From Dehalococcoidia bacterium (GTDB taxonomy: Bacteria > Chloroflexota > Dehalococcoidia > SM23-28-2 > RBG-16-64-32), in contig JAUSFE010000104.1 in the NCBI GenBank assembly GCA_030649945.1, forward strand, positions 97,383 to 161,382: DNA of 64,000 nucleotides, in the 5' to 3' direction. The notes below the pieces were generated by a model. The model searched no databases. It was not told where the DNA came from and saw only the letters and a program-made list of their open reading frames with translations. Below, one piece after another: positions 38,209-52,828 of the stretch. The position numbers and the translations under genes are program-made. How positions within the stretch are numbered: the stretch's first letter is position 1; each line of letters starts with the position of its first letter.

Positions 38209-38283
38209 GCGGGCGTAGCTCAGTGGTAGAGCATCTGCCTTCCAAGCAGAGGGTCGTGGGTTCGATCCCCATCGCCCGCTCCA
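38209..38283 (+). tRNA. tRNA-Gly (TCC)
   Basis: Cloverleaf GCGGGCG...CGCCCGCTCCA; anticodon arm TCTGC-CTTCCAA-GCAGA; encoded CCA; TATAAT upstream. Confidence 0.98.
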
Positions 38284-38424
38284 GATACGAACTCGAGCAC
38301 TTCTGACAGCCCCAAAAGGCGGTCTTCTTCATGGGAGCCAGCTGGCTTGTGGGTCTGGCTTCCCGTATCTGTCACTCCCGACCAATTACACGTTCGTAGA
38401 TACGATTCTTAGGCCATAAGCTAG

Positions 38425-39384
38425 TCAGCTGCCGTCTCCAACCCGGCACTGGATTGAGGACGCGCCTGACCGTGCCATAACGGGCGACTGAGGCCGACCG
38501 GCACGCGTCATGCGGCTCTCGCCCAGCGATGGCCACGAGGGATTGGGGTTGGCGATCAGGAACCTATCATCTGGAGGATTCCACCATGTCCGAGGTGGCG
38601 TGAAGCCGGGGGAGCCGATGCGCTTCCAAACCTCTTGCGTGTTTTTCAACGGAATGTCGTCTCGCTTGATCAACTCCGGTAAGTCGTGACAGCAGAGCCT
38701 CTCCGTCGGCCAGCCCCTAGCTCTCAACCGACGTGCGAAGGAGTCGAGGATACCCACCTTTGCCTCAGGTTCAACCACCAAGATCATCTTGTCGATATTG
38801 TCCTCATAACCGCCCAGGGCGTCCAACAACGGAGCCCATTCATCGAACCGGTATGGGAAAGAGGCCGAGAAGACTAGCAGATCGAAAGTTTCAAGAGTAA
38901 GGCCCCTCAGAGTGCCGTCGCTCACTGAGCCTTCCTCATAGCGGGCGGAAACACGTGCTCGATACCGTGAAGACTCAGCGAAAGCTATCATCTCGCGGCT
39001 GGGTTCGATTCCGAGGAGACTGATGTGACGAGGGGAGTTCAGCAGGTCGAGCGCAAGAGCCGTCGAACCCGTTCCGCTTCCAATGTCTAAGACAGATGCT
39101 GGGTGACGGTCACCGAGAACGAGAAGTAGTGAACCAAGAGTGGAGATGACCCTTCTCGGCATGTACTTGAGGGCGTAGACAAGGGGCAGGCCGGGTTTGT
39201 CATAGTCAGGCTCTCTCTGCAATCTGAGCTCATCCAGCTCATCACTCCACCTGTTCGGATCAATGCGGATGTGGCGGCTTGTGAGCCGCTGAAAGTAGAG
39301 ACGAGCAGCTTCCGCGACCGCTCTGTCGAGCTTCTCGACTAGCCGCCGCCATTCGAAGACCGAAAGCCTATCGGATGGGAGCAT
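38425..39384 (-). CDS. Class I SAM-dependent methyltransferase
   Basis: VLDIGSGTG motif I, GIEPSREM, FDLLV and ILVVEP; overlaps the end of the radical SAM gene. Confidence 0.8.
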   Translation of the reverse strand: MLPSDRLSVFEWRRLVEKLDRAVAEAARLYFQRLTSRHIRIDPNRWSDELDELRLQREPDYDKPGLPLVYALKYMPRRVISTLGSLLLVLGDRHPASVLDIGSGTGSTALALDLLNSPRHISLLGIEPSREMIAFAESSRYRARVSARYEEGSVSDGTLRGLTLETFDLLVFSASFPYRFDEWAPLLDALGGYEDNIDKMILVVEPEAKVGILDSFARRLRARGWPTERLCCHDLPELIKRDDIPLKNTQEVWKRIGSPGFTPPRTWWNPPDDRFLIANPNPSWPSLGESRMTRAGRPQSPVMARSGASSIQCRVGDGS

Positions 39385-40246
39385 ATCCGCTGGCACCTTC
39401 GTATAATTTTCGGCCTTCGCCCAGAACCCTTGCCAGTGATTCCCGCGCTCGGCTGTACTCCCTGATCCCCCAGGCATCCTCTTGCGCCTTCTTGAGCACT
39501 TCGCTGGTGCTCCCTGCCCCAAACGATGACCTTTCTGGCTTCAGGTATTGAGTGGAGTAACCATCGGCATTCAGCCCAGCAAGCCGAATGCCGAATGCTT
39601 CGATGTCCCTGATGGGGAGCATGGGAGTGATCGAGATGCCGATCCGTACGCCCGCGTCGGCGACCTTGGCCGCTGCCTTGAGGCGCACGGCTATGGACGG
39701 AGCATGCGGCTCGTAGCGCAGCCGGACGTCTTCAGAGTCTGTGGGAATGGAGAAGTTCACGCGAACCTTGTCGAATCGGCGGAGCAGATCTATGTCGCGT
39801 GTAACTATGGGGCTTCGCGTTTGAATGGTCAGACGCGGTTGGACACCGCATTCGAGCATCGCCTCGAGGATGGCCCTCGTCAGCCCAAGGCGCTGCTCAA
39901 CTGGTTGATATGGGTCGGTGACGCTGGACATGTAAATTGCGTCGCCCGTCTTCAATGCCCCAGAACGGCAAGCTTTGGCCATCAGTTCCCGCGCATTCCT
40001 CTTCGCCGAGACCCACTGCCCCCATGATTCCCGCTGCTTAGCAGAGGGAGCGAAGAACCTCGCGTAGCAGTATTCGCAGCCGAACCCGCATCCCGAATAG
40101 GGGTTCAGGGTGAAATCGTACCGGCTCAGAAAGCCAGAAGCGCGGGTCAGAATCGACTTTGAATCAATGTACTGAACCGACGTTCGGCTGAACACTGACC
40201 GCCCGATCGACTGTCGGATCTCCCTGATCGCCACATCGGGGCTCAT
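39368..40246 (-). CDS. Radical SAM protein, spore-photoproduct-lyase-like (Rv2578c-type)
   Basis: LNPYSGCGFGCEYCYA (CxxxCxxC), SSVTDPYQPVE, QTRS and YEP. Confidence 0.9.
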   Translation of the reverse strand: MSPDVAIREIRQSIGRSVFSRTSVQYIDSKSILTRASGFLSRYDFTLNPYSGCGFGCEYCYARFFAPSAKQRESWGQWVSAKRNARELMAKACRSGALKTGDAIYMSSVTDPYQPVEQRLGLTRAILEAMLECGVQPRLTIQTRSPIVTRDIDLLRRFDKVRVNFSIPTDSEDVRLRYEPHAPSIAVRLKAAAKVADAGVRIGISITPMLPIRDIEAFGIRLAGLNADGYSTQYLKPERSSFGAGSTSEVLKKAQEDAWGIREYSRARESLARVLGEGRKLYEGASGYAPIR

Positions 40247-40527
40247 GGTCGGAAGGTATCGCTTGAGCGGAACAGCGGTAAGAGGCTAATGGCACACTTC
40301 GATTGTTGGACCTACGCAGAGGGTCGTGGGTTCGATCCCCATCGCCCGCTCCAGATACGATTTCGAACGCCGTTGACCGCCGGGAGGCGGTCTTCCCTTC
40401 TGGAAGCTGAGGGCTCGCGTTGGTTCCGGCTGCTCGGAGTCTGCGGACGAGTCGAGCCCCCGTGTCGGGAAAAACCGGATTGACAGTGGGAAGTCAGCCG
40501 CGATAAGAAGGTTCTGTCACTCAGTTC

Positions 40528-40767
40528 ATGACAGAATCTATGGGCAAGCACGTTTCGCCAAGAACGCAGCGCGAGGAGATTCTGGACGCAGCCATGGCCT
40601 GCTTCACGGAGCTTGGCTACGAGGGAACCTCTATCGACGCCATCGCCGCCAGATCCGGCCTGCCCAAGAGTGCTATCTCCCAGCACTTCGCTGGTAAAGC
40701 CGAGATTCGAAATGCGCTTCTTACCATGTGGTCAGAGCGCCTTTCGGGATGGATGCTATCGGCTTGA
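40528..40767 (+). CDS. Short TetR-type HTH protein (HTH domain only)
   Basis: ILDAAMACFTELGYEGTSIDAIAARSGL..HFAGKAE; 79 aa. Confidence 0.75.
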   Translation: MTESMGKHVSPRTQREEILDAAMACFTELGYEGTSIDAIAARSGLPKSAISQHFAGKAEIRNALLTMWSERLSGWMLSA

Positions 40768-41078
40768 GGCCGCGTTGCGCGCTGGTGAGGTTCGTTCATG
40801 AACCAGCGGCGGCCGGCGAACCACCCGCACCCCGATCTGGCAACCTGGCACGGCGCTGGCTCTTCGTGGCGACGGCAAGGACGCGACGGCGGTATATCTC
40901 CCTCTGAAGCGTCACCGTTAGCCCGGTGAAGAAAGCTGTCGCGGCGACAAGTACGGCGGGGCTAGGTCGACGAGCCGCCCACCGCGTCCAGGTTCAGTAA
41001 ACCTTGGATTCCGATGTCCATCTCTCCCTTAGGTCATGGGACCTCAGCCACACAGCGGCTCACGGAGACGGCGCGCTC

Positions 41079-41636
41079 CTAGCCGCCGGTTGCGGCCGGA
41101 CGCCCGCCGGCGGCGCCTTCGCTCAGCGCGCGCCACATCTCGCGGTCCGACTGGAGGAAGCGCAGCACCTGACTGGTGGTGAGGCCGAGAGCGCGGGCGG
41201 CCCCGGCGTAGCTGCCGGCCGCCGACGCCAGGGCATCCAGCACGGTGGCCACCACAAGCGGGTAGTCCGGGTTGCGCGGGTTCACGGCCAGGGCGCCGCG
41301 GGGACCGCGGTGGGCCAGGAACTCCGGCGCCAGGGCCGGCGCGGATGGGTCGAAGGGCTCGCGGACGGCGAGCGCGATGCGCGCCCGTAGGCGGCGCAGG
41401 GCGCGGCGGCGGTTCTCCTCCGGCGAGCGGGACTCCTCGGCCGCGGCCGAGAGACCGCTGGGCCCGTGGTGCAGGCGGACGGCCGTCTCCACCTTGTTGC
41501 GCCGCTGGCCACCGGGGCCACCGGCCCGGTAGCGCTCCTGCCGGCACTGGCCAAGGAGGGCGGCATCGTCCAGCCGGAGCCAGGCATCGCGCCGGCCGAC
41601 GGGAACCTGGCCGGGGCCTCTCGCAGATGACCGCAC
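41079..41636 (-). CDS. Peptide chain release factor-like protein (RF-1 domain); start uncertain
   Basis: GGPGGQRRNKVETAVRL and EESRS.EENRRRAL. Confidence 0.85.
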   Translation of the reverse strand: MRSSARGPGQVPVGRRDAWLRLDDAALLGQCRQERYRAGGPGGQRRNKVETAVRLHHGPSGLSAAAEESRSPEENRRRALRRLRARIALAVREPFDPSAPALAPEFLAHRGPRGALAVNPRNPDYPLVVATVLDALASAAGSYAGAARALGLTTSQVLRFLQSDREMWRALSEGAAGGRPAATGG

Positions 41637-41739
41637 GTCCGCATCATACCCCCGGCTCGCAGCCCGGCGCGAAGGTGTCGGGATGTATGATGGCTGCGGG
41701 CGTGCCCCCGAGGCGCCCGGCGGAGAGAGGCGCAGACTT

Positions 41740-42648
41740 TTGATTCTCGTAGCAGGCGGTACCGGCTTCGTGGGCGCCGGCATCGTGCGCGAGCTGGCGC
41801 GGCGCGGCAAGCGTGTCGCCGTGCTCACGCGCGACGCCGTGCGGGCGCTGGACCGCTTCCCCGGCATCGAGGTGGAGTACCGGCAGGGCGACGTGCGGGA
41901 CGAGGCGTCGCTGGCGGCGGCGGTGCAGGGGGCGGAGACGGTGATCGGGAGCCAGCAGTTCCCGCAGTCGCCGGTGGAGGACCGGAAGCGCGGCCACACG
42001 TTCGAGGAGGTGGACGCACGCGGGACGGAAAAGCTGGTGCGCGCGGCGCAGGCGGCGGGGGTCAGGCGCTACGTCTACCTGAGCGGGGCGGGCGCTGCGC
42101 CGGACGCCGCGTACCACTGGTTCCGCGCTAAGTGGCGGGCGGAAGCGGCCGTGCGCGAGAGCGGCATGACTTATGTCATCTTCCGCCCTTCCTGGGTCTA
42201 CGGCCCGGAGGACAACGCCCTCAACCGCTTCATCGCCATGTCCCGCTTCCTGCCGTTCGTGCCGCTGATCGGCAACGCGGCCGGGCAGCGCCTGCAGCCG
42301 GTGTTCATCGACGACCTGGCGCGGGCGGTGGCGGAGGCGGTGGACAACCCGGCGGCGGACAACCAGACGCTGGAGATCGGCGGGCCGGATGTGCTGACGA
42401 TGAAGGAGGTGGTACGCGCGGCGCTGCAAGCGGCCGGGCGCCGACGCCTCCTGCTGCCGGTGCCGAAAAGCGTGATGAAAGCGGCCGCTTCCCTCCTGCA
42501 GTTCATGCCCGGGCGGCCGCTGACGCCGGACGCGGTGGAGTTCGTAACGATGGACGCGCTGGCGGACCCATCGGAGGTACGCCGGAAGCTGGGCGTGAGG
42601 CTGACGGCGCTGCGAGACGGGCTGGGGACGTATGTGGGAAGAGGGTAG
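41740..42648 (+). CDS. NAD(P)H-binding atypical SDR (NDUFA9-like)
   Basis: ILVAGGTGFVG, FRPSWVYG and QPVFIDDLA. Confidence 0.9.
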   Translation: MILVAGGTGFVGAGIVRELARRGKRVAVLTRDAVRALDRFPGIEVEYRQGDVRDEASLAAAVQGAETVIGSQQFPQSPVEDRKRGHTFEEVDARGTEKLVRAAQAAGVRRYVYLSGAGAAPDAAYHWFRAKWRAEAAVRESGMTYVIFRPSWVYGPEDNALNRFIAMSRFLPFVPLIGNAAGQRLQPVFIDDLARAVAEAVDNPAADNQTLEIGGPDVLTMKEVVRAALQAAGRRRLLLPVPKSVMKAAASLLQFMPGRPLTPDAVEFVTMDALADPSEVRRKLGVRLTALRDGLGTYVGRG

Positions 42649-42763
42649 GAGTTGGAGGTTGGAGCTTGGAGGACCCTTTGGCACATGCCGGCGAGCGTGC
42701 ACCGGCGGCAGCCGTTCGGTATTCTAGGGGCGATTCAGCGTGAATCGCGCGGAGGACCCCCCG

Positions 42764-44488
42764 ATGACCACTGAGAAGACCGAAAGCGAAGCCCTGGCCG
42801 GCGCGCGCCGGCTGAGCGCCGTGGCGGCAGAGACCGCGGAGAGCGCGGTGGCGGCCGCGGCGCGCCTGACCGAGGGCGGCAAGCTGATTGACCAGCACCA
42901 GGTTCACGCCGAGCGCATCGCGCAGCTGGCGACGCAGGCGCGGGCGGCGGCGGAGCTGCTGGCTTACGCCGAAGGCCAGGCCAACGCCGGCCGGCGGGAC
43001 GAACTGGCGGAGGAGGAGGCATTCGCCTTCGCGGCAGAGGTGGTGCACAACGCCCGTTCCGCGGCGGAGGCCGACCCGGACGCCTTCGGGCTGCCCGCCG
43101 GCCTGCGCCAGCGACTGGAAGGGGCCGACCTCAGGGCGCTGGTGCGGGCGGGACTGGCCGAATCGCGCTGGCGGCGGATCGGCGCGAAGGTGCTCGAGGC
43201 GCGCGGGGCGTTCACGGCGGCGCTGGACGACGACATCGCGAACATGACGCGGGACCACGCGCGCTCTTTCGCCCGCACGGAGGTCGCGCCCATCGCGCAG
43301 GAGCTGCACCGCCAGGACCTGCTGGTGCCGGAGGAGCTGATCCGGAAGATGGCGGCGATGGGGCTGTTCGGCTCCTCGATCCCGGAGTCCTACGGCGGCA
43401 CCGGGATGGGGTACCTGACGATGGTGGTGCTGACGGAGGAGCTATCGGCCGTTTCGCTGGTGGCGGGCAGCCTGATCACGCGCTCTGAGATCCTGACGCG
43501 CGCGCTGGTGCAGGGCGGGACGGAGGAACAGCGCCGCCAGTGGCTGCCGCGAATGGCCTCCGGCGAGCTGATGGTGGGTATCGCCGTGACGGAGCCGGAC
43601 ATCGGGTCGGACGTGGCGTCGGTCACGTGCCGGGCGGCGCCGGGGGAGCACAGCGGCAAGCGGGGGTGGTTCATCGAAGGGCCAAAGGCCTGGGCCACGT
43701 TCGCGGGGCGCGCCAACATCCTGGCGCTGCTGGCCCGCACGAACCCCGATGCGTCGCTGGGCGCGCGCGGGCTATCGCTGTTCATCGTGCCGAAAGAGCC
43801 GTACGAGGGGCACCACTTCGCGCACGCACAGCCGGAAGGCGGGACGATCACGGGCACGGCAAACCCGACGCCCGGGTACCGGGGCATGCACTCGTTCACG
43901 CTGGCCATCGACCGCTACTTTGTGCCGGAGGAGAACCTGGTGGGCGGCGAGGCCGGGCTGGGCAAGGGGTTCTACCTGCAAATGGGCGGGTTCGCCGCCG
44001 GGCGGCTGCAGACGGGCGGCCGGGCCACGGGCGTGGGACAGGCAGCGCTGGAGAAGGCCTGCAACTACGCCAGCGACCGACGTCAGTTCGGCCGGCCGAT
44101 AGCGGACTACCAGCTGACGCAGCACAAGATCGGGAGAATGGCCACGCACGTGGCGGCCGGCCGGCACCTGACGTACGCAGCGGCGCGGGCGATGGAGGCG
44201 GACCCTTCGGCTCCGGCTAGCGCCGGGCTCAGGGCAGGCTCTTCGACTCCGGCTAACGCCGGGCTCAGGATGAGCGGAGGGCTTGAAGCGGCGATGTGCA
44301 AGCTGTTCGCATCCGACGTCGCGGTGTGGGTGAGCCAGGAGGCGCAGCTGATCCACGGCGGCTGGGGCTATTCGGAAGAGGACCCGGTCGCGCGTTATGT
44401 CGCGGACGCGCTGGTGCTGCCGATCTTCGAGGGCGTGAAGCCAATCCTCGAGCTGAAGGTCATCGCGCGGCAGTTGCTGGCGGGATAG
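42764..44488 (+). CDS. Acyl-CoA dehydrogenase (with in-frame repeat insert)
   Basis: PESYGGTG, AVTEPDIGSD, RRQFGRPI, QLIHGGWGY and IFEG. Confidence 0.93.
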   Translation: MTTEKTESEALAGARRLSAVAAETAESAVAAAARLTEGGKLIDQHQVHAERIAQLATQARAAAELLAYAEGQANAGRRDELAEEEAFAFAAEVVHNARSAAEADPDAFGLPAGLRQRLEGADLRALVRAGLAESRWRRIGAKVLEARGAFTAALDDDIANMTRDHARSFARTEVAPIAQELHRQDLLVPEELIRKMAAMGLFGSSIPESYGGTGMGYLTMVVLTEELSAVSLVAGSLITRSEILTRALVQGGTEEQRRQWLPRMASGELMVGIAVTEPDIGSDVASVTCRAAPGEHSGKRGWFIEGPKAWATFAGRANILALLARTNPDASLGARGLSLFIVPKEPYEGHHFAHAQPEGGTITGTANPTPGYRGMHSFTLAIDRYFVPEENLVGGEAGLGKGFYLQMGGFAAGRLQTGGRATGVGQAALEKACNYASDRRQFGRPIADYQLTQHKIGRMATHVAAGRHLTYAAARAMEADPSAPASAGLRAGSSTPANAGLRMSGGLEAAMCKLFASDVAVWVSQEAQLIHGGWGYSEEDPVARYVADALVLPIFEGVKPILELKVIARQLLAG

Positions 44489-44490
44489 CG

Positions 44491-44922
44491 GTGCCTCAGA
44501 AAAGGGCCCTGGCTCTGGCGCTCGGCGACGTCGCGTCTCTCGTCGCGTTCGGCGTGCTGGGGCTGGCGAGCCACGAACGGGAGTTCACTGCCGCCGCCTT
44601 CGCGCGGGCGGTGCTGCCGTTCGCGGCCGCGTGGCTGGCGCTCGGCTGGCCGCTCGGCGCTTTCGGGCTGCACGACGGGCGGCCGGCGCTCACCGGCTGG
44701 CGCTTCGCCGCGGCCTGGCTGGTCTGCGGGACGGCTGCTCTAGGCGCGCGGGCGCTCGTCTTCGACCGCCACCTCCTGAACGCGTTCTTCGTGATCGCGC
44801 TCGCCGGCAACGGCCTCAGTCTGGCGGCGTGGCGGCTGGCGTTCGACCGTCTCTGGAGCCGGCGGACCGCATCGCGCGGCGGCGCGGGCGCGGCAACTGC
44901 CGAGGGAGTGAAATCATGGTGA
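44491..44922 (+). CDS. DUF3054-like membrane protein
   Basis: GD....F...G..SH, PF and W motifs; 4 TM segments. Confidence 0.75.
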   Translation: MPQKRALALALGDVASLVAFGVLGLASHEREFTAAAFARAVLPFAAAWLALGWPLGAFGLHDGRPALTGWRFAAAWLVCGTAALGARALVFDRHLLNAFFVIALAGNGLSLAAWRLAFDRLWSRRTASRGGAGAATAEGVKSW

Positions 44923-45041
44923 AAGACCGGGACGGCGCGGGCGACACGATCGTCCGGCTGCTGATCAACCTGGCCGGACTGGGCCTGACCGCTGGCGTGG
45001 TGGCTCTCGTCGTCGCCACCATCGTCCACGAAGCCGGCTAG
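44916..45041 (+). CDS. Small single-TM protein (41 aa)
   Basis: GAGGGAG RBS; MVKDRDGAGDTIVRLLINLAGLGLTAGVVALVVATIVHEAG; overlaps the upstream gene. Confidence 0.55.
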   Translation: MVKDRDGAGDTIVRLLINLAGLGLTAGVVALVVATIVHEAG

Positions 45042-46333
45042 GCGTAGAACGCCGGCAGGTACGGCCGGTGGACGGCGAGGACTTCGTCCAGGAAGGCCTC
45101 TGCCGCGCGGGCGCTGTGGACTACCGGGTCGATGAGGAGCGCCTGGAGGGCCAGCGCGCGGGAGCCTTCGACGGCGGCGCGCACGGCCAGCTCCTGGACC
45201 TCGATCTCGTGCTGGACCAGGGCGGCGACGGGACCGGGCAGCGGGCCGACCGGGACGCCGCGCCACCGCCCCTCCGCGATGAGACCCGGCACCTCGACAA
45301 CGGCGTCCTCGGGCAGGTTCGCCACGCACCCCTGGTTCGGGATGATGAACGACGGCCTGGGCAGCGTGGCGCCGGCGAGCAGCCCGGCCATGATCTGCGT
45401 CACGCCGTGGCCGAGCCGCGATTCCCGCGAGGGCTTCGCTAGGAGCGAGGCGACAGGTTTCGCGCCGGCGCCCCAGGCCTCGATGTTCGCCCGGCTGAGC
45501 CCCCGCAGTTGGCCGAAGCGCTCGAAGTCGTAGCCACGGGTGCCGACGATCTCCGCCGCCCAGGGGATGTACTCGCCGACGTGATTATCGCCGGTCGTGG
45601 GGAAGACGCCCAGCCTCTCGAAGAGCAGGCGGCAGAGGGGCCAGACGTCCGGTGGGAGGGTCGCCAGGCGCCGCTGCAACTCCGGGAGCAGGTCGCCGCC
45701 GTCCGGACGGGAGCGCAGAGCGGTGATCCAGGTGAAGTGGTTGACGCCGGCCGCGTGGAGGTCGATGTCCGGCGGATCGCAGCCGAGGACGCCCGCCGCG
45801 AAGTGCACCGTCTCCGCAACGCCGTGGCAGAGGCCGATGGCACGGACGCCGGTGTAGCGGTGGACGGCCAGGCAGACGCGATTCTCCGGATTCGTGTAGT
45901 TCAGCAGCAGGGCGTCCGGCGCGAGCCGCTCGATGTCGCGGGCGATGGCGACCATAGGCGGCACGGAGCGCAGCGTGTGGGAGAGCCCGCCGGGGCCGCC
46001 GTTCTCGCTGAGCACGCTGGGGAAGCCGTGCTTGACGGCGAGTTCGTGGTCCAGCCGCCAGGTGCGGTCGCGGTCTAGCTCGATGGACGTCACCACGAAG
46101 CGGGCACCGGGCAGGGCTTCAAGACGTTCCGTCGTCGCGCACACGCTTGCGTCCCACCCGGACGCCTCGTTCAGCCGGCGGGCGAGCGCTGCCATGCGCG
46201 CGAGCGCGGCTGCGTCCGTATCGACGAGCCAGAGCTCGGCGCCGCGCAGCTCGGGCGTTTGGAAAACGTCGCGCAGCAGCTCCACGCCGAAGACGGTGCT
46301 ACCGATGCCGATGGCGACGATCCTGGGGGCCAT
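45038..46333 (-). CDS. melA: Glycoside hydrolase family 4 (alpha-galactosidase/glucosidase)
   Basis: IGIGSTVF, ENGGPGG, LNYTNP, GLCH, GVNHFTW and ALLIDP. Confidence 0.88.
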   Translation of the reverse strand: MAPRIVAIGIGSTVFGVELLRDVFQTPELRGAELWLVDTDAAALARMAALARRLNEASGWDASVCATTERLEALPGARFVVTSIELDRDRTWRLDHELAVKHGFPSVLSENGGPGGLSHTLRSVPPMVAIARDIERLAPDALLLNYTNPENRVCLAVHRYTGVRAIGLCHGVAETVHFAAGVLGCDPPDIDLHAAGVNHFTWITALRSRPDGGDLLPELQRRLATLPPDVWPLCRLLFERLGVFPTTGDNHVGEYIPWAAEIVGTRGYDFERFGQLRGLSRANIEAWGAGAKPVASLLAKPSRESRLGHGVTQIMAGLLAGATLPRPSFIIPNQGCVANLPEDAVVEVPGLIAEGRWRGVPVGPLPGPVAALVQHEIEVQELAVRAAVEGSRALALQALLIDPVVHSARAAEAFLDEVLAVHRPYLPAFYA

Positions 46334-46405
46334 GCTGGGAATGTAGCAGGCGGGGTGGGTAGTGGATAGTGGATAGTGGATAGTGGATTGCGAGGAGTCG
46401 CTTGG

Positions 46406-46843
46406 TCAGCGCACGGTGCGGCCGGCGCGGCCGCTGTATTCGATGAGCTTGCGGGGGCGCAGGCGGATGGTGACGGCGTCTTCGCCGGAGGTGCGCTCCA
46501 CGTAGCGGCGGCCCAGGTCCTCTCCCAGGTAGCGGACGGCCATCCGCAACCGGTCCTCCGCCGACAGCGGCGGGCCGACGACGGCGCGGCCGCGGGCCAT
46601 GACGGCGTAGTAGGGAACGGTGCGGCTGTCGATCACCAGGGTCACTTCCGGGTTGACCTCGACGTTGCGGTGCTTCTGGGAGCCGTTGCCGGTGCTGATG
46701 GTGAACTCGCCGCCGTCGTAGAGGTACCAGACGGGAGCGGCGTGGGCGCGGCCGCGGCGGTCCACGCTGGCCAGCACGGCCACGTTGGCCCCGCCCAGGA
46801 AGCCTGTCCTGAGCTCGGTCGAAGGGTCGTCTCGCTCGCTCAT
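46406..46843 (-). CDS. PPOX-class (F420/FMN-binding split barrel) protein
   Basis: LASV..G..HAAPVWY, SQKHRNVEVNPEVTL and RY. Confidence 0.85.
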   Translation of the reverse strand: MSERDDPSTELRTGFLGGANVAVLASVDRRGRAHAAPVWYLYDGGEFTISTGNGSQKHRNVEVNPEVTLVIDSRTVPYYAVMARGRAVVGPPLSAEDRLRMAVRYLGEDLGRRYVERTSGEDAVTIRLRPRKLIEYSGRAGRTVR

Positions 46844-46886
46844 GGCGCCCATTCTACAGCATGCGCAGTGATATAATCCCTCCGCT

Positions 46887-48239
46887 GTGGCGACGGCCAA
46901 ACGGATCGAGGCAGAGGTGGACTTCGCGGCCCTGGAGACGGAGGCCGTGCGCCTGCTGCGCGACTACGTGACGATCGACACCACGAACCCGCCGGGCGAC
47001 GTCTCGAAGGCGGCGGACTGGGTAGAGGCAGCGCTGCGCGCGGAGGGCATCGAGACGCTGAGGCTGGGGCCGGCGCCGGAGAAGGCCAACGTGGTCGCGA
47101 CGATCGGCGAGGGAGACGCCCGGGGGAGGGGGCTGGTGCTGGCGCACCACATGGATGTGGTGCCGGCGGTACGGGAGGACTGGAGCGCTGAGCCCTTCGG
47201 CGGGGAACTGCGCGAGGGGTTCGTCTGGGGCCGCGGGACACTGGACATGAAGGGCTTCGGCGTTCTCAGCATGCTCTGCGCCCGCACCCTGAAGCGCCTG
47301 GGGCTTCCGTTATCGCGTCCGTTGCGCATTCTGGCGACCGCGGACGAGGAGGTGGGCGGCATCGGCGGGGCGAAGTGGCTGGCGGCGAACCACCTGGACG
47401 CCGTGGGAGGCGAGTTCCTGTTGACGGAGGGGAGCTTCGCGCGCGCCGGGCCGCGGGCCACGTACTACGCCGTGCAGGTGGCGGAGAAGGGCGTGAGCAC
47501 GGCAAAGCTGACGGCGCGCGGACAGCCGGGGCACGCGTCCTCGCCGCGAGAGGACAACGCCGTCGTGCGCATTGGCCGGGCCCTGGCGAAGATCGGTGAG
47601 TACCGCTCGCCGCCCGCGGCGCTGGATCTGGCGCGGCGCTACCTCTCGGCCTTCCCGCCCCGCGCCCTCAGGCTTCCGGAAGGAAGGACGGTGGGCGGCC
47701 TGAGCGACGTGGAGATGGAGGAGCTGCTGTACCGGCTGAGCGGTGGCAGCCGCATCCAGAATATGCTGCGCAACACGTTCTCGCCGACGATGGTGAACGC
47801 CGGGCTGGGGCAGAACGTGATCCCGCCGCTCTGCGAGGCATATGTGGACTGCCGTACGGTGCCGGGCGTGAGCAGCGAGGGCGTGCTGGAGGAGCTGGCC
47901 CAGGTTATCGGCGACCAGGAGGTTCAGCTGGAACTGGTGAAGTCCAGCGTAGGCACGGAGTCGCCGGCAGAGAGCGAACTGTTCGGGGCGATCCGCCAGG
48001 CGGTGCACGGCGAGCGGCCGGAGGCAATCGTGGTGCCGTACTTGACGAGCGGCGGGACGGACTGCAAGCACTTCCGCCCGCACGGGATAGTGTGCTACGG
48101 GCACATCCCGTTCGAGCTGGACGACAGCGAGGCGGAGCGCATCCACGGCGTGGATGAGCGCGTGTCGGTCGAGAACCTGGGGCGGGCGCTGCGGGTACTG
48201 TGGCGGGTGGTCGTGGGAATGTGTGCGGGGAATGGGTGA
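46887..48239 (+). CDS. M20/M25/M40 family metallopeptidase
   Basis: HMDVVP, GRGTLDMKG, DEEVGG, GHAS, GGTD and IHGVDE. Confidence 0.93.
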   Translation: MATAKRIEAEVDFAALETEAVRLLRDYVTIDTTNPPGDVSKAADWVEAALRAEGIETLRLGPAPEKANVVATIGEGDARGRGLVLAHHMDVVPAVREDWSAEPFGGELREGFVWGRGTLDMKGFGVLSMLCARTLKRLGLPLSRPLRILATADEEVGGIGGAKWLAANHLDAVGGEFLLTEGSFARAGPRATYYAVQVAEKGVSTAKLTARGQPGHASSPREDNAVVRIGRALAKIGEYRSPPAALDLARRYLSAFPPRALRLPEGRTVGGLSDVEMEELLYRLSGGSRIQNMLRNTFSPTMVNAGLGQNVIPPLCEAYVDCRTVPGVSSEGVLEELAQVIGDQEVQLELVKSSVGTESPAESELFGAIRQAVHGERPEAIVVPYLTSGGTDCKHFRPHGIVCYGHIPFELDDSEAERIHGVDERVSVENLGRALRVLWRVVVGMCAGNG

Positions 48240-48411
48240 TGGGCTGGTGGCGAGTCGCCCCGCCCCGTCCGGCGTCAGGCTGAAGTCTGACCCGCCGAGA
48301 GCCGGAAGGCGCCGGCGCCACTGACAGGACGCTGTCAGGCGCCGGCGTTAGGCTGGCGGCAGCTGAGCGAACCAGGAAGGGAAAATGCGGGCCACTTACA
48401 GCGAAAGGCGC

Positions 48412-48440
48412 TTGACAGCGTCCGGGAAGACGCATAGGAT
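48412..48440 (+). promoter_or_regulatory. sigma70-type promoter
   Basis: TTGACA-N17-TAGGAT. Confidence 0.75.
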
Positions 48441-48469
48441 AACCGCATCAGGTTTCGGTGCACAGCATT

Positions 48470-48562
48470 ATGATGAGCGTTATCTACATCAGCCCCGTGC
48501 GCGTGACCCCTATGGTCAGCGACCACCCGGGAGAGATTGCGTTCGGAAGCGGGCCACCCTGA
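48470..48562 (+). CDS. 30-aa leader or precursor peptide candidate (MMSVIYISPVRVTPMVSDHPGEIAFGSGPP)
   Basis: ORF lies between the promoter and the hairpin; no clear SD; not in the ORF track. Confidence 0.45.
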   Translation: MMSVIYISPVRVTPMVSDHPGEIAFGSGPP

Positions 48563-48585
48563 CACCTCGATAACCCACAACAGGC

Positions 48586-48625
48586 AGAGCCCGTTTCCGG
48601 CAGGAAGCGGGCTCTAGTGTTTCTT
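48586..48625 (+). terminator. Terminator/attenuator-like hairpin upstream of the GNAT gene
   Basis: AGAGCCCGTTTCC-GGCA-GGAAGCGGGCTCT followed by AGTGTTTCTT. Confidence 0.7.
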
Positions 48626-48636
48626 GGGGGAAGACG

Positions 48637-49932
48637 ATGACGATGAACACGGAAATGTCCATATTCGACAGGCCGGCAGAGGTGCCGGAAGACCTGCTAA
48701 AGCTGGCGGCCGAGAAGGGGTGGCCGGAGGACCTCATCCGCCGCGGGCTGGAGCTGCGCCTCCACCGGCGCGCGATGGAGTGGTGGATGACGACGGAGCG
48801 GCAGATGACGCCGGAGCTTGCCCGCCGCTTCCTGGACACCCGCGAGCAACTGCTGAACGGGACGATGCGCGTGCGCGAGGCGACCTGGACGGACTCCGAG
48901 GCGCTGGCGGACCTCTACGCCAGCTCTCCGGAGGAGATCGGCGACTGGGAGATCACCGTCGAGCGCGGCCCGTACGCGTTCGCGCAGTTCCGGCTGCAGG
49001 AACACGTGAGCGTTACGATCGTCGAAGACAAGGGGATCATCCTGGCTGCGACGGCCGATTCGTCCCGGAACACGGTCGTCGGCGGACAGCGCACGACGGC
49101 GCACATCGCCTCGGCCTGGCGAGTGCGGAAGGAGTGCCGGGGCCAGGGGCTGAGCCACTGGCTGCGGCTCATCGGCGGGCCGGGGTGCGGCTGGTTCGGA
49201 TGGTACAACTACTACTACGTGCGCCCGCAGAACTTCGCCGCCCTCGGCTGGATCAAGACCTTCCTGAAGGACGCCGTGGAAGGCCTGGCGGAAGTGGAAG
49301 GCGACGTGCCGGGGATGCGCGTGAGCGTGCTCCACTTCGCGCCACGGCCGCTGCGGAGGGACAGGACCGGAATCCGGCACGTAACCGAGGCCGACCTGCC
49401 GCAGTGCCTGCGTCTGATCAACCGCACGCACAAGGGCCGCGACCTGTTCCGGCCGTACAGCAGGGAGTTCCTGGAGGAGCGCCTGAACGACCCCTGCTGG
49501 GGCGAGAAGCCGCCCTTCTGGGAGCCGGTCTACGGCTGGCCGGACTACTACGTGGTGGAAGAGGAGGGGCGCGTGGTGGCCTGCGGCGGGCTGTGGGACA
49601 AGGGCGCGCACGGGCGCGAAGCCTGGCGCCACAAGGAGACCGGCGAGACGAAGACCATTGACTGCACGGCGCTGCTGGACTTCGGCTACGCCGCCGGGCG
49701 AGAGGAGGCGATGGCGCGGCTCATCGGCTTCTTCATCGGCAAGACGCACGCACTGGGGCGCAGCCACCTGGCTGCGGGCGTCGAGCACCTGCCGCGGCTG
49801 GTGAAGGCGCTGGCGCAACTGGAGCCGACGACGGAGACGCGGGCACTCCACTGGCAGCGCTACGACCCGGTAGCGGACCAGTGGGTGGCGGACGCGCTCC
49901 AGCGGCCGTACACGGACCTGGCCTACTGGTGA
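48637..49932 (+). CDS. Tandem GNAT-fold acyltransferase-like protein
   Basis: VREAT..D, WRVRKECRGQGLS acetyl-CoA motif; second IRHVTEADL...VVACGGLWD module. Confidence 0.7.
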   Translation: MTMNTEMSIFDRPAEVPEDLLKLAAEKGWPEDLIRRGLELRLHRRAMEWWMTTERQMTPELARRFLDTREQLLNGTMRVREATWTDSEALADLYASSPEEIGDWEITVERGPYAFAQFRLQEHVSVTIVEDKGIILAATADSSRNTVVGGQRTTAHIASAWRVRKECRGQGLSHWLRLIGGPGCGWFGWYNYYYVRPQNFAALGWIKTFLKDAVEGLAEVEGDVPGMRVSVLHFAPRPLRRDRTGIRHVTEADLPQCLRLINRTHKGRDLFRPYSREFLEERLNDPCWGEKPPFWEPVYGWPDYYVVEEEGRVVACGGLWDKGAHGREAWRHKETGETKTIDCTALLDFGYAAGREEAMARLIGFFIGKTHALGRSHLAAGVEHLPRLVKALAQLEPTTETRALHWQRYDPVADQWVADALQRPYTDLAYW

Positions 49933-49936
49933 TGCC

Positions 49937-51793
49937 GTGAGCCGCTGGTTCGACCCGAGCGCCCCACTGCCGCCTTCGGCCACGGTAGCCCCGGTGCAGC
50001 ACGTCTACAGGCGCATCCTGGGGCACATGCGCCTGTTCTGGCGCGGCATCGGCCTCAGCGTGGGGCTGGCCATGATCAGCTCGCTCTTCATCACGCTGCA
50101 ACCGTGGCCGATCAAGTTCATCATTGACGGCGTGCTGGTGAACAGCCGGCTGAACCTGGGGCCGCTGGGCCACGTTGTAAGCGACACGGACGACGACAAG
50201 CTGGTGGTGGGCGCGGCGCTGGCGGGCGCTTACCTGGTGATCACGGTTGTGGGAGTGCTGTTCAACGCCGCCAGCTTCTACGCCATCGCGCGGACGGCGC
50301 TGCTCATGATCCACAACCTGCGCTCGCGGCTGGTGGGGCACGTGCGCTCACTCTCCATGCGCTACCACGCGAACCAATCGGTGGGGGACACCATCTGGCG
50401 GGCGATCAACGATGCGCGGAGCATCCAGGAGGTGATGATCTTCGGCATCCGCACGTGGACGGTGCTGGTCTTCCGGCTGGTGATCATGGTCGGTTTCATG
50501 CTGCTGCTGGACCCGCTGCTGACGCTGGTCTCGCTGGCGGTGCTGCCGCTGCTCTTCATCACGATCCACCGGCTGACGGCGCGCATTCAGCGCACCTCGC
50601 AGGAGAGCCGGGAGCACATGAGCCGCATGACCTCGCTGATCGAGCAGACGATGGGCGCGATCCGGGCGGTGCAGGTGTTCGGGCGCGAGGGGATGGAGCA
50701 GCGGCGCTTTGAGACGACGAGCATGAACTTCGTGCAGGCGCAGCTGAAGTTCCGCCGCTCCGAGCAGGTGCTGAACGTGGCCACCGTCGTCATCACCGGC
50801 CTGGGCACGGCGGCGGTGCTGTTCTTCGCCTCGTACCGGGTGATCCACAGCGCGCTGACGGTGGGGTCGCTCTGGGTGTTCGTGAGCTACATGCAGTCGC
50901 TCTACCAGATGATGAACGAGATCATGTTCGTGTACGGACCGTTCCAGGACGCTGTCGTGGGCGTGGGCAGGGCGTTCCAGGTGCTGGACGAAGCGTCCGA
51001 CATCCGGGAGGCGCCGGACGCCATCGCGAAGACGTCGTTCGAGCGCTCGTTGCGGTTCCGGGACGTGCAGTTGCAGTACGAAAGCGGCCGGCCTGTGCTG
51101 CGCGGGGTGGACTTCGAGGTGTGCCGCGGCGAGAAGGTGGCGATTGTGGGGGAGACGGGCTCCGGCAAGACGAGCATCCTGAACCTCATACCGCGTCTCT
51201 ACGATGTGACGGGCGGGGCCGTGGAGATGGACGGGGTGGACGTGCGCAGGCTCAAAATTGCGGACCTGCGAGACCTGGTGAGCATGGTGCCGCAGGAGCC
51301 GCTGCTGTTCGCAGCGACAGCGCGGGAGAACATCCTCTACGGGCGGCTGGACGCTACCCCGGAGGAGGTGCGGGCGGCGGCGACGGCGGCGCGGGCGGAC
51401 GGCTTCATCCAGGAGCTGAGCGCGAAGTATGAGACGGAGGTGGGCGAGCGCGGCGTCAAGCTCTCCACCGGCCAGCAGCAGCGGATATCGATCGCGCGGG
51501 CGTTTCTCAAGAACGCGCCGATCCTGCTGCTGGACGAGCCGACGTCGGCGCTGGACCTGCGGACGGAGGCCGACTTCCTGGACGGCCTCTCGGAGCTGAT
51601 GGCGGGCCGCACGGTGATCATCGTTGCGCACCGGCTTTCGACGATCCGCAATGTGGACCGCATCTATTTCCTGGAGGACGGCGTCTTCGCGGAGTGCGGC
51701 AGCCACGAGGAGCTGATGCAGCAGAAGGGCCATTATTACGAGCTGTTCATGCGCCAGTTCGGGTCCGGCGCGGCGGAACCAGCGATCGTCTGA
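49937..51793 (+). CDS. ABC exporter, fused permease/ATPase
   Basis: TM domain; GETGSGKT, LSTGQQQR, LLLDEPTSALD and AHRLST. Confidence 0.95.
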   Translation: MSRWFDPSAPLPPSATVAPVQHVYRRILGHMRLFWRGIGLSVGLAMISSLFITLQPWPIKFIIDGVLVNSRLNLGPLGHVVSDTDDDKLVVGAALAGAYLVITVVGVLFNAASFYAIARTALLMIHNLRSRLVGHVRSLSMRYHANQSVGDTIWRAINDARSIQEVMIFGIRTWTVLVFRLVIMVGFMLLLDPLLTLVSLAVLPLLFITIHRLTARIQRTSQESREHMSRMTSLIEQTMGAIRAVQVFGREGMEQRRFETTSMNFVQAQLKFRRSEQVLNVATVVITGLGTAAVLFFASYRVIHSALTVGSLWVFVSYMQSLYQMMNEIMFVYGPFQDAVVGVGRAFQVLDEASDIREAPDAIAKTSFERSLRFRDVQLQYESGRPVLRGVDFEVCRGEKVAIVGETGSGKTSILNLIPRLYDVTGGAVEMDGVDVRRLKIADLRDLVSMVPQEPLLFAATARENILYGRLDATPEEVRAAATAARADGFIQELSAKYETEVGERGVKLSTGQQQRISIARAFLKNAPILLLDEPTSALDLRTEADFLDGLSELMAGRTVIIVAHRLSTIRNVDRIYFLEDGVFAECGSHEELMQQKGHYYELFMRQFGSGAAEPAIV

Positions 51794-51869
51794 GGGCCCG
51801 CTGAAGCGGCCCCGGCCGCACCCCCGGCGAGTTGAGAGAGCGAGGGGGCTCCGCTAATATAAGATGCGA

Positions 51870-51944
51870 GCGGGCGTAGCTCAGTGGTAGAGCATCTGCT
51901 TCCCAAGCAGAGGGTCGTGGGTTCGAGCCCCATCGCCCGCTCCA
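51870..51944 (+). tRNA. tRNA-Gly (CCC)
   Basis: Cloverleaf nearly identical to tRNA-Gly(TCC); anticodon loop TTCCCAA; encoded CCA. Confidence 0.98.
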
Positions 51945-52488
51945 GATACGGATTCGACACCTGATGACCGCCAAGAGACGGTCTTTTTTCGTGGAAGCTT
52001 AGGGCCTTGATCTATCTGTCGTCGCCTCGGAGCATCGATCTTAGACACGAAATCATGGCCCTCTGCCATGCAAGCTGATGGCCGCCGCGGTGGCTTGCTC
52101 CTCATCGCGTATAATTCGCGCCATGGAGCGTTGGGATCCGCTACTGCACGACGGAGGGTGGCGTCCGCGTCGCTTACTTACAAGGAGATGCACATGACAG
52201 ACTTGGAGAGGTACGAGACAGACGCGATCCGCGTGACCTACGACTCGGGCGTCTGCGTCCACGCCGCCGAATGCATTCGCGGCCTCCCCGAGGTCTTCAA
52301 CGCCGACGCCCAGCCCTGGATCCAGCCGCAACACGCGGACCCCAACGCCGTCGCCGAGCAGGTCAAGCGCTGCCCCAGCGGCGCGCTTCAGTACCAGTTC
52401 CTTAAGCAGCCTCAATAACTCCCATCGCCCCGGCGTCAGCGGCTACGGAGGGTCGTGGGTTCGAGCCCCATCGCCCGCTCCAGATACG
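51910..52488. mobile_element. Integrase-free 538-bp cassette at tRNA-Gly(CCC), bounded by 41-bp direct repeats
   Basis: 51910-51950 identical to 52448-52488 (GAGGGTCGTGGGTTCGAGCCCCATCGCCCGCTCCAGATACG). Confidence 0.85.
52194..52418 (+). CDS. Divergent 4Fe-4S mono-cluster protein (YjdI/Fer4_19-like)
   Basis: CVHAAECIRGLPEVF..PWI..CPSGAL; AAGGAG RBS. Confidence 0.88.
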   Translation: MTDLERYETDAIRVTYDSGVCVHAAECIRGLPEVFNADAQPWIQPQHADPNAVAEQVKRCPSGALQYQFLKQPQ

Positions 52489-52828
52489 ATTTTCTCTCCT
52501 CAAGCGCTACAGGCCGCGGACGTTACGTCGCTTGTCCCGGGGGGCCGGCCGCCGTTCATCCTGTCAAGGCGAGCCTGGCTCCGCAAGCTTGACGCTGGGC
52601 CGGTTGCCTCTATGAATAAGGGCCAAACGGACTGTGGGAACGTGACTCGACGCCCATTGTGGGCCCGTGTACGATGGGTCAGGATTGCATGTGACGGAGG
52701 GTACTGTATCGGCGGGAATAGCGTCGTGCTTCAGGGGCGGAGCGGCGGTTCATCCAGTGTGAACTCCGCTCCGTCAAATGGGGAGTCGGGCAGCCTGAGG
52801 CCCGAATAGAAGACTGGAAAGCACTCCA

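What the first reader, a model, noticed from the sequence alone, without database searches (positions are those of the whole stretch)
38209..52500. Integrase-free gene cassettes at two tRNA-Gly genes with a shared att-like module: possible tRNA-anchored integron-like system
Seen: each tRNA-Gly is followed by a short cargo block (2070 bp; 538 bp) and a duplicate of its own 3' half. The T-loop variant matches the local tRNA (TTCGAT vs TTCGAG). All four copies continue past CCA with GATACG. Three continue with identical spacing as GATACG-N3-TCGA-N7-TGAC(C/A)GCC-N4-6-G(G/A)CGGTCTT (at 38284, 40354, 51945), while the N positions differ. Both partial copies are immediately preceded by CTAC. No recombinase gene is in the window. 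Knowledge: tyrosine integrases regenerate tRNA 3' ends, but such islands are normally large and encode the integrase. Inference: minimal one- or two-gene cassettes carrying a standard tRNA-3'+terminator module, moved by a trans-acting integrase and stacking in arrays.
Basis: partly seen in the sequence, partly recalled or inferred. Interest (0 to 1): 0.85.

Follow-up and report, generated by a model that had tools for sequence, protein, structure and literature searches.

The report
Integrase-free gene units at tRNA-Gly
Two glycine tRNA genes are each followed by a tiny foreign insert bounded by a copy of the tRNA's own tail; these are worn-down members of a family of small, integrase-less gene units that stack behind tRNA-Gly in a group of uncultured groundwater bacteria.

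Summary
Each tRNA-Gly gene is followed by an insert that ends in an exact copy of its own 3' part: 45 nt at 2070 bp spacing and 41 nt at 538 bp spacing. No recombinase gene lies on the contig.

The shared "att-like module" is real. A ~145-nt block directly follows the CCA end of full or partial tRNA-Gly copies in 23 of 43 genomes of the family, with 62 copies in all. Partial copies are preceded by a second conserved arm of about 110 nt, in at least 5 classes. Between the arms sit 1-2 intact accessory genes. Of 19 unit lengths measured, 18 are 0.5-4.1 kb. None of the ORFs annotated in 13 small units is an integrase.

Both window units are worn. Compared with a 91.5%-identical metagenome contig, unit 1 has lost 357 nt: the far arm and the anticodon-loop part of the repeat. 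Unit 2 keeps a 20-codon scrap of the family's commonest cargo gene. The cargo is under purifying selection (dN/dS 0.12).

Best reading: these are fixed, CIME-like remnants of tRNA-Gly-specific integrative units, stacked by serial integration. They are not an integron. Mobilisation in trans is plausible for the family but untested. This is a new variant of a known kind.

The parts
38209..38283 (+). tRNA-Gly(TCC), intact. It is the only TCC gene found in the assembly.
38246..38290 (+). left copy of direct repeat 1: 45 nt covering the tRNA 3' part plus GATACGA
38284..38440 (+). post-CCA module (near arm) of unit 1: GATACGA box, imperfect hairpin, CGTATCTG box, second AGATACGA box
   Evidence: nhmmer E 1.7e-20; R1 model; 86% identical to the L104 module
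38425..39522 (-). cargo gene: class I SAM methyltransferase. These are ORF limits; the true start is probably downstream of the TTG.
   Evidence: Pfam Methyltransf_25; 90% aa identity to L104
39368..40246 (-). cargo gene: radical SAM protein, spore-photoproduct-lyase-like / PA0069-like, below the family cut-offs
   Evidence: dN/dS 0.116 against L104
40316..40360 (+). right copy of direct repeat 1. This is a partial tRNA-Gly 3' copy that lacks the anticodon loop and the far arm. The deletion junction lies at CTACGC|AGAGGG.
40354..40414 (+). truncated module (model positions 1-60 only) behind the partial copy: the start of an older, decayed unit
   Evidence: nhmmer E 0.0016
40528..40767 (+). 79-aa TetR_N-only fragment lying in DNA whose low G+C persists to about 40900
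51870..51944 (+). tRNA-Gly(CCC), intact
51910..51950 (+). left copy of direct repeat 2 (41 nt)
51945..52089 (+). post-CCA module (near arm) of unit 2, with a terminator-like hairpin at 51966-51983 followed by a T-run
52110..52195 (+). TATAAT-like box (52110-52115), then ATG at 52123, then a frameshifted scrap (aa 5-25) of the alpha/beta-hydrolase-class III cyclase cargo gene
   Evidence: The promoter box was read by eye and is conserved in the C32 and C77 copies.
52194..52418 (+). cargo gene: small Fer4_19 (divergent 4Fe-4S mono-cluster) protein behind an AAGGAG ribosome-binding site
   Evidence: sequence read
52448..52488 (+). right copy of direct repeat 2. This is a partial tRNA-Gly 3' copy without anticodon loop, far arm or module.

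Best explanation
The two inserts are integrase-free units of a lineage-wide family of small integrative units that target tRNA-Gly.

Anatomy of an intact unit:
- a copy of the tRNA from the anticodon loop to CCA;
- a conserved ~145-nt near arm behind that copy (GATACGA box, its own terminator hairpin, further boxes, then a promoter);
- one or two cargo genes;
- a conserved ~110-nt or longer far arm.

Inferred mechanism: recombination in the anticodon-loop region of tRNA-Gly puts the unit behind a regenerated tRNA and leaves the displaced 3' part as a distal repeat. Repeated integration stacks units into arrays (accretion), and deletions then erode them.

In this genome both units have lost the anticodon-loop part of the distal repeat and the far arm. 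Their cargo is kept by selection. They therefore behave as fixed, captured genes, that is, decayed CIME-like islets.

Shown: the anatomy, its recurrence, the truncations and the selection on cargo. Inferred: site-specific integration, the crossover place and present immobility.
For: 1. Exact 45- and 41-nt repeats of the local tRNA 3' part flank the inserts. Unit 1 has a G+C of about 0.57, against about 0.70 in the flanks.

2. Module model R1 finds 62 copies in 23 of 43 family genomes. Ten of the 62 are the training copies. In the 30 loci inspected, 30 of 30 copies that start at model position 6 or earlier lie directly behind a tRNA-Gly 3' end: 12 behind full tRNAs and 18 behind partial copies.

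3. Of 32 distinct sequences upstream of partial copies, many fall into at least 5 conserved classes of about 110 nt, each abutting the anticodon loop. Class 1 lies next to at least 5 different cargos.

4. L249 holds an intact 1742-bp unit: core, module, full 447-aa cyclase-family gene, class-1 arm, next core.

5. Of 19 spacings between successive copies, 18 are 0.5-4.1 kb. The ORFs annotated in 13 small units include no integrase: the 2 window units, 3 units of G015 and G016, and the largest ORFs of 8 further units.

6. Contig L104 carries the same unit at tRNA-Gly(TCC), 91.5% identical over 1841 nt. It has 357 extra nt holding the class-1 arm and the anticodon-loop part, so the window copy is a deletion derivative with GC microhomology at the junction.

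7. Decay is visible in G000:
- cyclase scraps survive in window unit 2 (aa 5-25), C32 (aa 1-73 and 416-447) and C24 (the last 15 aa);
- a TetR_N fragment sits behind a half module;
- a 21-aa integrase remnant lies just upstream of the C77 partial copy.

8. The rSAM cargo has dN/dS 0.116 and dS 0.37 against L104.

9. The partial copies on C77 and at C32:153782 carry the tRNA-Gly sequence type of other genera, not of G000's own genes. This suggests import from other lineages.
Against: - No recombinase specific for these units was identified.
- The only integrase seen directly beside a partial copy plus module (G033:C46) has no relative closer than 46% identity in G000.
- No excised circle or empty site was seen. 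Only contigs were available, and cassette depths (20.0 and 20.9) equal those of the flanks (21.2-22.5).
- The crossover place is inferred only from where partial copies begin.
- The near arm also precedes a full-length cyclase-family gene directly behind an intact tRNA in G030. It could therefore be native intergenic DNA that was later copied.
- MAG fragmentation may hide large integrase-bearing parents. Many tRNA-Gly copies lie at contig ends.
Confidence: 0.62

Rival explanations
1. These are classical decay products. Large integrase-bearing islands or prophages integrated at tRNA-Gly, and each was later reduced by deletion to one or two genes. On this reading the small size has no mechanistic meaning.
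For: - An integrase C-terminus ends 45 nt before a partial copy plus module in G033:C46.
- A 21-aa remnant of that integrase clade sits upstream of the C77 partial copy in G000.
- G008 has a 19.7-kb interval between copies, with integrases in and beside it.
- Gene scraps and truncated arms are present in G000.
- A 357-nt deletion is shown for window unit 1.
Against: - Units are compact, with intact genes filling the space between two conserved arms. Examples are the 1742-bp unit in L249 and the G016 unit of TetR plus MMPL.
- The same arm classes flank different cargos in different genera.
- A blastx against 15 tyrosine integrases of one clade found no integrase beside any class-1 arm or behind any module in the loci held, apart from the G033 case. 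That database is not sensitive to all recombinases.
- No parent island was found for the rSAM-MTase unit among 16 metagenome loci.
Confidence: 0.2
2. The window units are still mobile cassettes. They are excised and re-inserted by an integrase encoded elsewhere in the genome.
For: - The flanking repeats are perfect.
- G000 has 10 tyrosine and 2 serine recombinase genes elsewhere in the genome.
- The family-level pattern is one of standard arms with variable cargo.
Against: - Both distal repeats lack the anticodon-loop segment and the far arm that nearly all other partial copies keep.
- The same cargo sits at the same tRNA in a relative with dS 0.37.
- G000 has no close relative of the one tRNA-Gly-linked integrase.
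Confidence: 0.08
3. No site-specific recombinase is involved. The repeated block of tRNA 3' part plus module (about 200 nt) serves as homology for RecA-type recombination, which inserts, deletes and swaps units between arrays, or the arrays grew by segmental duplication of the native trailer.
For: - Each cargo is flanked by similar core-plus-module blocks.
- The module precedes a full-length gene behind an intact tRNA in G030, as native DNA would.
- The rSAM-MTase pair occurs in both orientations relative to the tRNA copies, and once with no tRNA piece nearby.
Against: - Module copies within one genome are only about 60-80% alike, which is poor substrate for homologous recombination.
- The distinct far arms are conserved over about 110 nt and end exactly at the anticodon loop, a hallmark of attP-type sites.
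- Partial copies start at one defined place in the tRNA.
Confidence: 0.08

Closest known systems
Cis-mobilizable elements (CIMEs) and tandem accretion at tRNA genes (ICESt1-type elements of streptococci). Seen here as passages of the review PMC5704250.
   Same: The element has no integration or transfer genes and is bounded by attL and attR at the 3' end of a tRNA gene. Arrays form by integration of a new element into a resident att site.
   Different: - Units here are much smaller (0.5-4 kb, one or two genes).
- They share long conserved arms across genera.
- No parent ICE or IME is known.
- The two window copies have a truncated attR, so 'retains functional att sites' is not met for them.
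Dehalococcoides ssrA genomic islands (PMC3146451; passages read)
   Same: - By record titles, probably the same phylum.
- Tandem islands lie behind a small stable-RNA gene, each bounded by a repeat of its 3' end.
- There is extra conserved sequence beside the repeats.
- 15 islands lack an integration module, and the authors suggested these are CIMEs.
   Different: - The target there is ssrA, with a 20-bp repeat.
- The recombinase is a serine integrase inside a 6-gene module in 16 islands.
- Islands are larger, and their cargo is reductive dehalogenase genes.
- Here the target is tRNA-Gly from the anticodon loop onward, and no linked recombinase module was found.
Integron gene cassettes (recalled, not read here)
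   Same: Arrays of one- or two-gene, recombinase-less units with a standard recombination site; variable accessory cargo.
   Different: - There is no intI or attI platform next to the array.
- Sites are tRNA copies with arms, not attC hairpins.
- Cargo lies in either orientation and has its own promoter.
tRNA/tmRNA genomic islands as catalogued by Islander (PMC4383910, abstract in a search listing), and 'gene capture' by decayed integrated elements in archaeal chromosomes (recalled)
   Same: Integration splits the tRNA gene, the island restores it, and the displaced fragment marks the far end. Decayed elements leave captured genes behind.
   Different: By that definition an island encodes its own tyrosine integrase. 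These units do not.

Membership tests
tRNA-targeting genomic island (tyrosine-integrase type) | intact tRNA gene at one end, regenerated by island sequence | tested here: met
   both tRNAs score 72-74 bits against RF00005 and are called by ARAGORN
tRNA-targeting genomic island (tyrosine-integrase type) | direct repeat of the tRNA 3' fragment at the other end | tested here: met
   exact repeats of 45 and 41 nt
tRNA-targeting genomic island (tyrosine-integrase type) | integrase gene inside the island | tested here: not met
   Pfam on the cargo ORFs; no PF00589 or PF00239 match on C59; blastx of the units against 15 integrases gave nothing below E 0.1
CIME (cis-mobilizable element) | [quoted passage not shown] | tested here: met
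CIME (cis-mobilizable element) | retains functional attL and attR | tested here: inconclusive
   The repeats are perfect. However, the distal copies lack the anticodon-loop part and the far arm present in L104 and in most relatives. Function cannot be tested in silico.
CIME (cis-mobilizable element) | derived from an ICE or IME by deletion, and mobilised together with a related element | not testable with these tools
   no parent element found
Integron | intI integrase with attI and a Pc promoter at the head of the array | tested here: not met
   no recombinase on C59; the head of the array is a tRNA gene
Integron | attC-type site at the end of each cassette | tested here: not met
   unit ends are tRNA-Gly 3' copies with arms; no conserved fold beyond the terminator hairpin
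Integron | arrays of recombinase-less cassettes of one or two genes | tested here: met
   18 of 19 unit lengths are 0.5-4.1 kb; cargo annotated in 13 small units
Known RNA family for the module | match to an Rfam model | tested here: not met
   only tRNA hits, plus one sub-threshold YrlA hit

The most novel reading that the evidence does not exclude
A tRNA-Gly-anchored gene-cassette system exists in a family of uncultured groundwater bacteria, probably Chloroflexota. Units of 0.5-4 kb have no integrase. Each is built from a tRNA 3' core, a standard ~145-nt near arm carrying a terminator and promoter, one or two genes, and one of several standard far arms. On this reading the units are cut out and inserted as such by a recombinase encoded elsewhere in the genome. 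They stack in arrays, move between genera, and have helped to multiply a family of alpha/beta-hydrolase-adenylate cyclase genes to 20-40 matches per genome. The two window units would be dead members of that system.
Probability: 0.35. Interest if true: 0.85.

Novelty: new variant of a known kind. Interest (0 to 1): 0.58.

Why it matters
If the units move as such, this would be a second, tRNA-anchored route to integron-like stockpiling of single genes. It would operate in a poorly known, uncultured lineage and would tie gene-family expansion (the cyclases) to an att-site system.

Even on the conservative reading, the finding gives three things:
- a clean example of gene capture at tRNA genes;
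- a ready sequence model for finding such units: the module, plus the far arms, which are described here but have no model yet;
- a warning that island finders which require an integrase will miss this whole class.

Tried and rejected
1. Rfam. The window at gathering thresholds and six module loci at E up to 1 gave only tRNA, plus one sub-threshold YrlA hit. RNAalifold on 10 modules found 7 weak pairs at -3.45 kcal/mol, so a structured-RNA reading is not supported.

2. Sequencing runs.
- One probable source run (X1) and three other groundwater runs were laid as contigs only.
- In X1 the unitigs break at the repeats. Depths are 20.0 and 20.9 for the units against 21.2-22.5 for the flanks.
- No joint across either unit is among the 15 joints listed. 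A further 22 joints and 1542 loose ends were not shown.
- Contigs cannot show rare forms, so this says nothing about excision.
- In X2 and X4, contigs about 90% alike hold cargo 1 and run on unlike the window for 346-377 nt beyond 40317. That fits the L104 arrangement.

3. XerC-like integrases beside an orphan partial copy in G008. Their best G000 matches are 28-32% identical, and that partial copy has no module, so the lead was dropped.

4. Fer4_19 cargo. In 65 genomes of the order the best non-self match is 48% identical, so no orthologous unit was found.

5. G022 against G016 as an empty-site test. The upstream flank, tRNA and module align, and G022's module is closer (89%) to G016's distal module. 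The DNA behind the module differs in both, so this is not a clean empty site.

6. Viral contigs. There were 0 matches to the core-plus-GATAC pattern.

7. The 20-nt pattern in named genomes matches many phyla by chance. Only 20 of the 80 loci returned (111 stretches matched) hold the module.

8. PADLOC and NCBIfam gave only sub-threshold names for the cargo.

9. Supplements of the papers were not available. Additional files of PMC3146451 may show island maps relevant to the comparison.
Full report
**Observation.**
- The window holds two tRNA genes: tRNA-Gly(TCC) at 38209-38283 and tRNA-Gly(CCC) at 51870-51944 (Rfam tRNA at 74.4 and 71.8 bits).
- Each is followed by an exact copy of its own 3' part. 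38246-38290 equals 40316-40360 (45 nt), and 51910-51950 equals 52448-52488 (41 nt). The spacings are 2070 and 538 bp.
- The single T-loop difference between the two tRNAs is mirrored in the local copy. All four copies run on into GATACG. CTACG precedes both partial copies.
- Neither PF00589 (10 matches in the genome) nor PF00239 (2 matches) hits contig C59.

**Cargo.**
- Unit 1 carries, on the minus strand, a radical SAM protein (39368-40246) and a class I SAM methyltransferase (38425-39522).
- NCBIfam gives only sub-threshold relatives for the radical SAM protein: PA0069 family, 'radical SAM mobile pair protein B', and spore photoproduct lyase.
- G+C is about 0.57 in unit 1, against about 0.70 in the flanks. 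It stays low to about 40900.
- Unit 2 carries one small Fer4_19 gene, 52194-52418.

**The module.**
- The motif after CCA is the head of a ~145-nt block.
- Its parts, in order: GATACGA; a hairpin of variable sequence with a T-run; (A/G)AG(T/C)NAGAGGGCC; CTATCTG; a second CAGATACGA; and a hairpin GAGGCCATCTGC..GCAGATGGCC.
- A sequence-only model built from 10 copies finds 62 copies in 23 of 43 genomes of the family, up to 8 per genome. Ten of the 62 are the training copies.
- In the 30 loci returned, 30 of 30 copies that begin at model position 6 or earlier sit directly behind a tRNA-Gly 3' end: 12 behind full tRNAs and 18 behind partial copies.
- In G000 the module follows both full tRNAs of the window. 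A 60-nt stump of it follows the first partial copy. Full copies follow further partial copies on C32 and C77.
- It matches no Rfam family and has no conserved fold beyond the hairpin.
- In a scan of named genome records, the module is present in 20 of the 80 loci returned. Their titles are nearly all Chloroflexota or Dehalococcoidia MAGs, so the lineage is probably Chloroflexota. This is an inference from titles.

**The other arm.**
- I compared the sequence upstream of 32 distinct partial copies. Most begin their likeness to the tRNA at the anticodon stem or loop.
- They are preceded by conserved blocks of about 110 nt, which fall into at least five classes.
- Class 1 (AATCAGATGCTCAGCACG..CTGAGTCAGATGC..GGCAAGRAAAGCGACC) lies next to a PLD-like gene, an APH-type kinase, the rSAM-MTase pair and a cyclase-family gene, in different genomes.
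- Two long conserved non-coding arms that end exactly at a defined place in a tRNA are what attP-derived sites of integrative elements look like. This rests on established knowledge of tyrosine-integrase islands and is an inference here.

**Units and arrays.**
- Successive same-strand copies on one contig give 19 spacings:

| Source | Spacing (bp) |
|---|---|
| Window | 2070, 538 |
| G000 C32 | 1630 |
| G000 C77 | 1077 |
| G000 C23 | 4052 |
| G015 | 1671, 1047 |
| G016 | 3449 |
| G034 | 2511 |
| G005 | 2659 |
| G066 | 822 |
| L104 | 2610 |
| L107 | 3371 |
| L169 | 1177, 3058 |
| L195 | 1712, 1826 |
| L249 | 1742 |
| G008 | 19,696 |

- Eighteen of the 19 are at most 4.1 kb.
- Annotated cargo, besides the window's: TetR plus MMPL; an AAA_33 kinase; a hypothetical protein; M23 peptidase; DUF2652/SRPBCC; APH; glyoxalase; DUF3558; methyltransferase; PLD; CoA-transferase; and chromate transporter (the 10 largest ORFs of 8 units). 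No integrase is among them.
- L249 shows the intact form: core, module, a full 447-aa alpha/beta-hydrolase-class III cyclase gene, class-1 arm, next core, 1742 bp in all.
- That gene family is hugely expanded. It has 28 matches in G000 and up to 44 in other genomes, and it is present in 42 of 43 genomes.

**Decay in the window and in G000.**
- A metagenome contig (L104) carries the same unit 1 behind tRNA-Gly(TCC), 91.5% identical over 1841 nt.
- Between the rSAM start and the partial copy, L104 has 357 nt more. These hold the class-1 arm and the anticodon-loop part of the repeat. The window joins CTACGC to AGAGGG with a GC microhomology.
- So the CTAC of unit 1 is cargo-side DNA left by a deletion, and its distal site is truncated.
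- Behind it come a half module and a 79-aa TetR_N fragment in low-G+C DNA. This looks like the stump of an older unit.
- Unit 2 keeps, behind its module and a TATAAT box, a frameshifted scrap (aa 5-25) of the cyclase-family gene. C32 keeps aa 1-73 and 416-447. An orphan class-1 arm on C24 keeps the last 15 aa.
- Upstream of the C77 partial copy lies a 21-aa remnant, 71% identical, of the integrase that in G033:C46 ends 45 nt before a partial copy plus module.
- G000 has no relative of that integrase closer than 46%.
- None of the far-arm class words I searched for occurs in the 217 nt upstream of either window partial copy.

**Age and selection.** Against L104 the rSAM gene has dS 0.37 and dN/dS 0.116. 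The DNA beyond the distal repeat is unrelated in the two. The unit is therefore old and maintained.

**The same gene pair in other settings.**
- It lies between tRNA-Gly copies in the opposite orientation in L106, L107 and L113.
- It lies between a PALP-enzyme gene and dnaN, with no tRNA piece nearby, in L105.
- The partial copies on C77 and at C32:153782 have the tRNA-Gly sequence type of other genera, not of G000's own genes. This points to import.

**Reads.** Only contigs could be laid. In the probable source run the units have the same depth as the flanks, and no skipping joint is listed. This cannot exclude rare excision.

**Mechanism.** The best-supported reading has four steps:
1. Units with an arm-core-arm site recombined with the anticodon-loop region of tRNA-Gly. 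The incoming core and near arm, with its own terminator, then completed the tRNA.
2. Further units were added in the same way.
3. Deletions trimmed them.
4. Useful genes were kept.

Whether the small units ever moved on their own, served by a recombinase encoded elsewhere, is open.
- For it: the compact, intact, arm-to-arm units and the re-use of arms with different cargo.
- Against it: the scraps in G000, the one integrase-adjacent case, and the lack of any identified recombinase.
- I put the conservative reading (fixed CIME-like remnants of a tRNA-Gly-specific unit family) at 0.62.
- I put pure decay of large islands at 0.20, present-day mobility of these two units at 0.08, and a recombinase-free origin at 0.08.

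**Comparison with known systems.**
- The nearest described systems are CIMEs with tandem accretion at tRNA genes (PMC5704250, passages) and the tandem ssrA islands of Dehalococcoides, 15 of which lack an integration module (PMC3146451, passages).
- Integrons share only the array of recombinase-less small cassettes. Their defining platform and attC sites are absent.
- My two literature searches listed no description of small standard-armed, integrase-free units at tRNA-Gly. That is no proof that none exists.

**Verdict.** The window copies are worn and fixed. The family behind them is a new variant of a known kind and is worth a proper study.

Noticed in passing
G000:C32:155412-155486 (-), outside the window: A tRNA-Gly-like pseudogene with an 8-nt anticodon loop (CTTCCCAA) and a broken acceptor 5' strand. 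It is followed by a full module and an internally deleted cyclase-family gene.
   Followed up: partly
L071, L078, L082, L089; G000:C23:3337-3400: Several partial tRNA-Gly copies carry a short GC-rich hairpin insertion inside the T-loop (cccggacgggc..gcccgtctggg type). This may be a tiny inserted repeat.
   Followed up: no
module copies, e.g. L241:12284-12422 and 9773-9911: The distal hairpin of the module copies the tRNA-Gly anticodon stem (GAGCATCTGC..GCAGAGGGCC) but with a different loop. CAGATG- and AGATACGA-like words recur in both arms. These could be recombinase half-sites or relics of older partial copies.
   Followed up: partly
whole family; G000 has 28 matches: The alpha/beta-hydrolase plus class III adenylate/guanylate cyclase fusion genes are hugely expanded, with up to 44 matches per genome. 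Several sit directly behind a module.
   Followed up: partly
window 40312-40316 and 52443-52447: CTACG precedes both partial copies. For the first it is cargo-side sequence at a deletion junction. The match at the second is unexplained and may be chance.
   Followed up: partly
L088 (a G034:C1 locus): A tRNA-Gly 5' half, then half a class-1 arm, then the 3' half. The tRNA is split by about 55 nt, as if all the cargo of a unit had been deleted.
   Followed up: no
G000:C61, C73, C77, C91, C24: Five of the 10 tyrosine integrase genes of the genome lie next to other tRNA genes (SeC, Glu/Gln, Gln, Leu, Leu). These are ordinary integrase-bearing islands in the same genome.
   Followed up: no
L105:2187-3984: The rSAM-methyltransferase pair (82% and 75% aa identity) lies between a PALP-enzyme gene and dnaN with no tRNA piece nearby. 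The pair therefore also exists outside tRNA-Gly units.
   Followed up: partly
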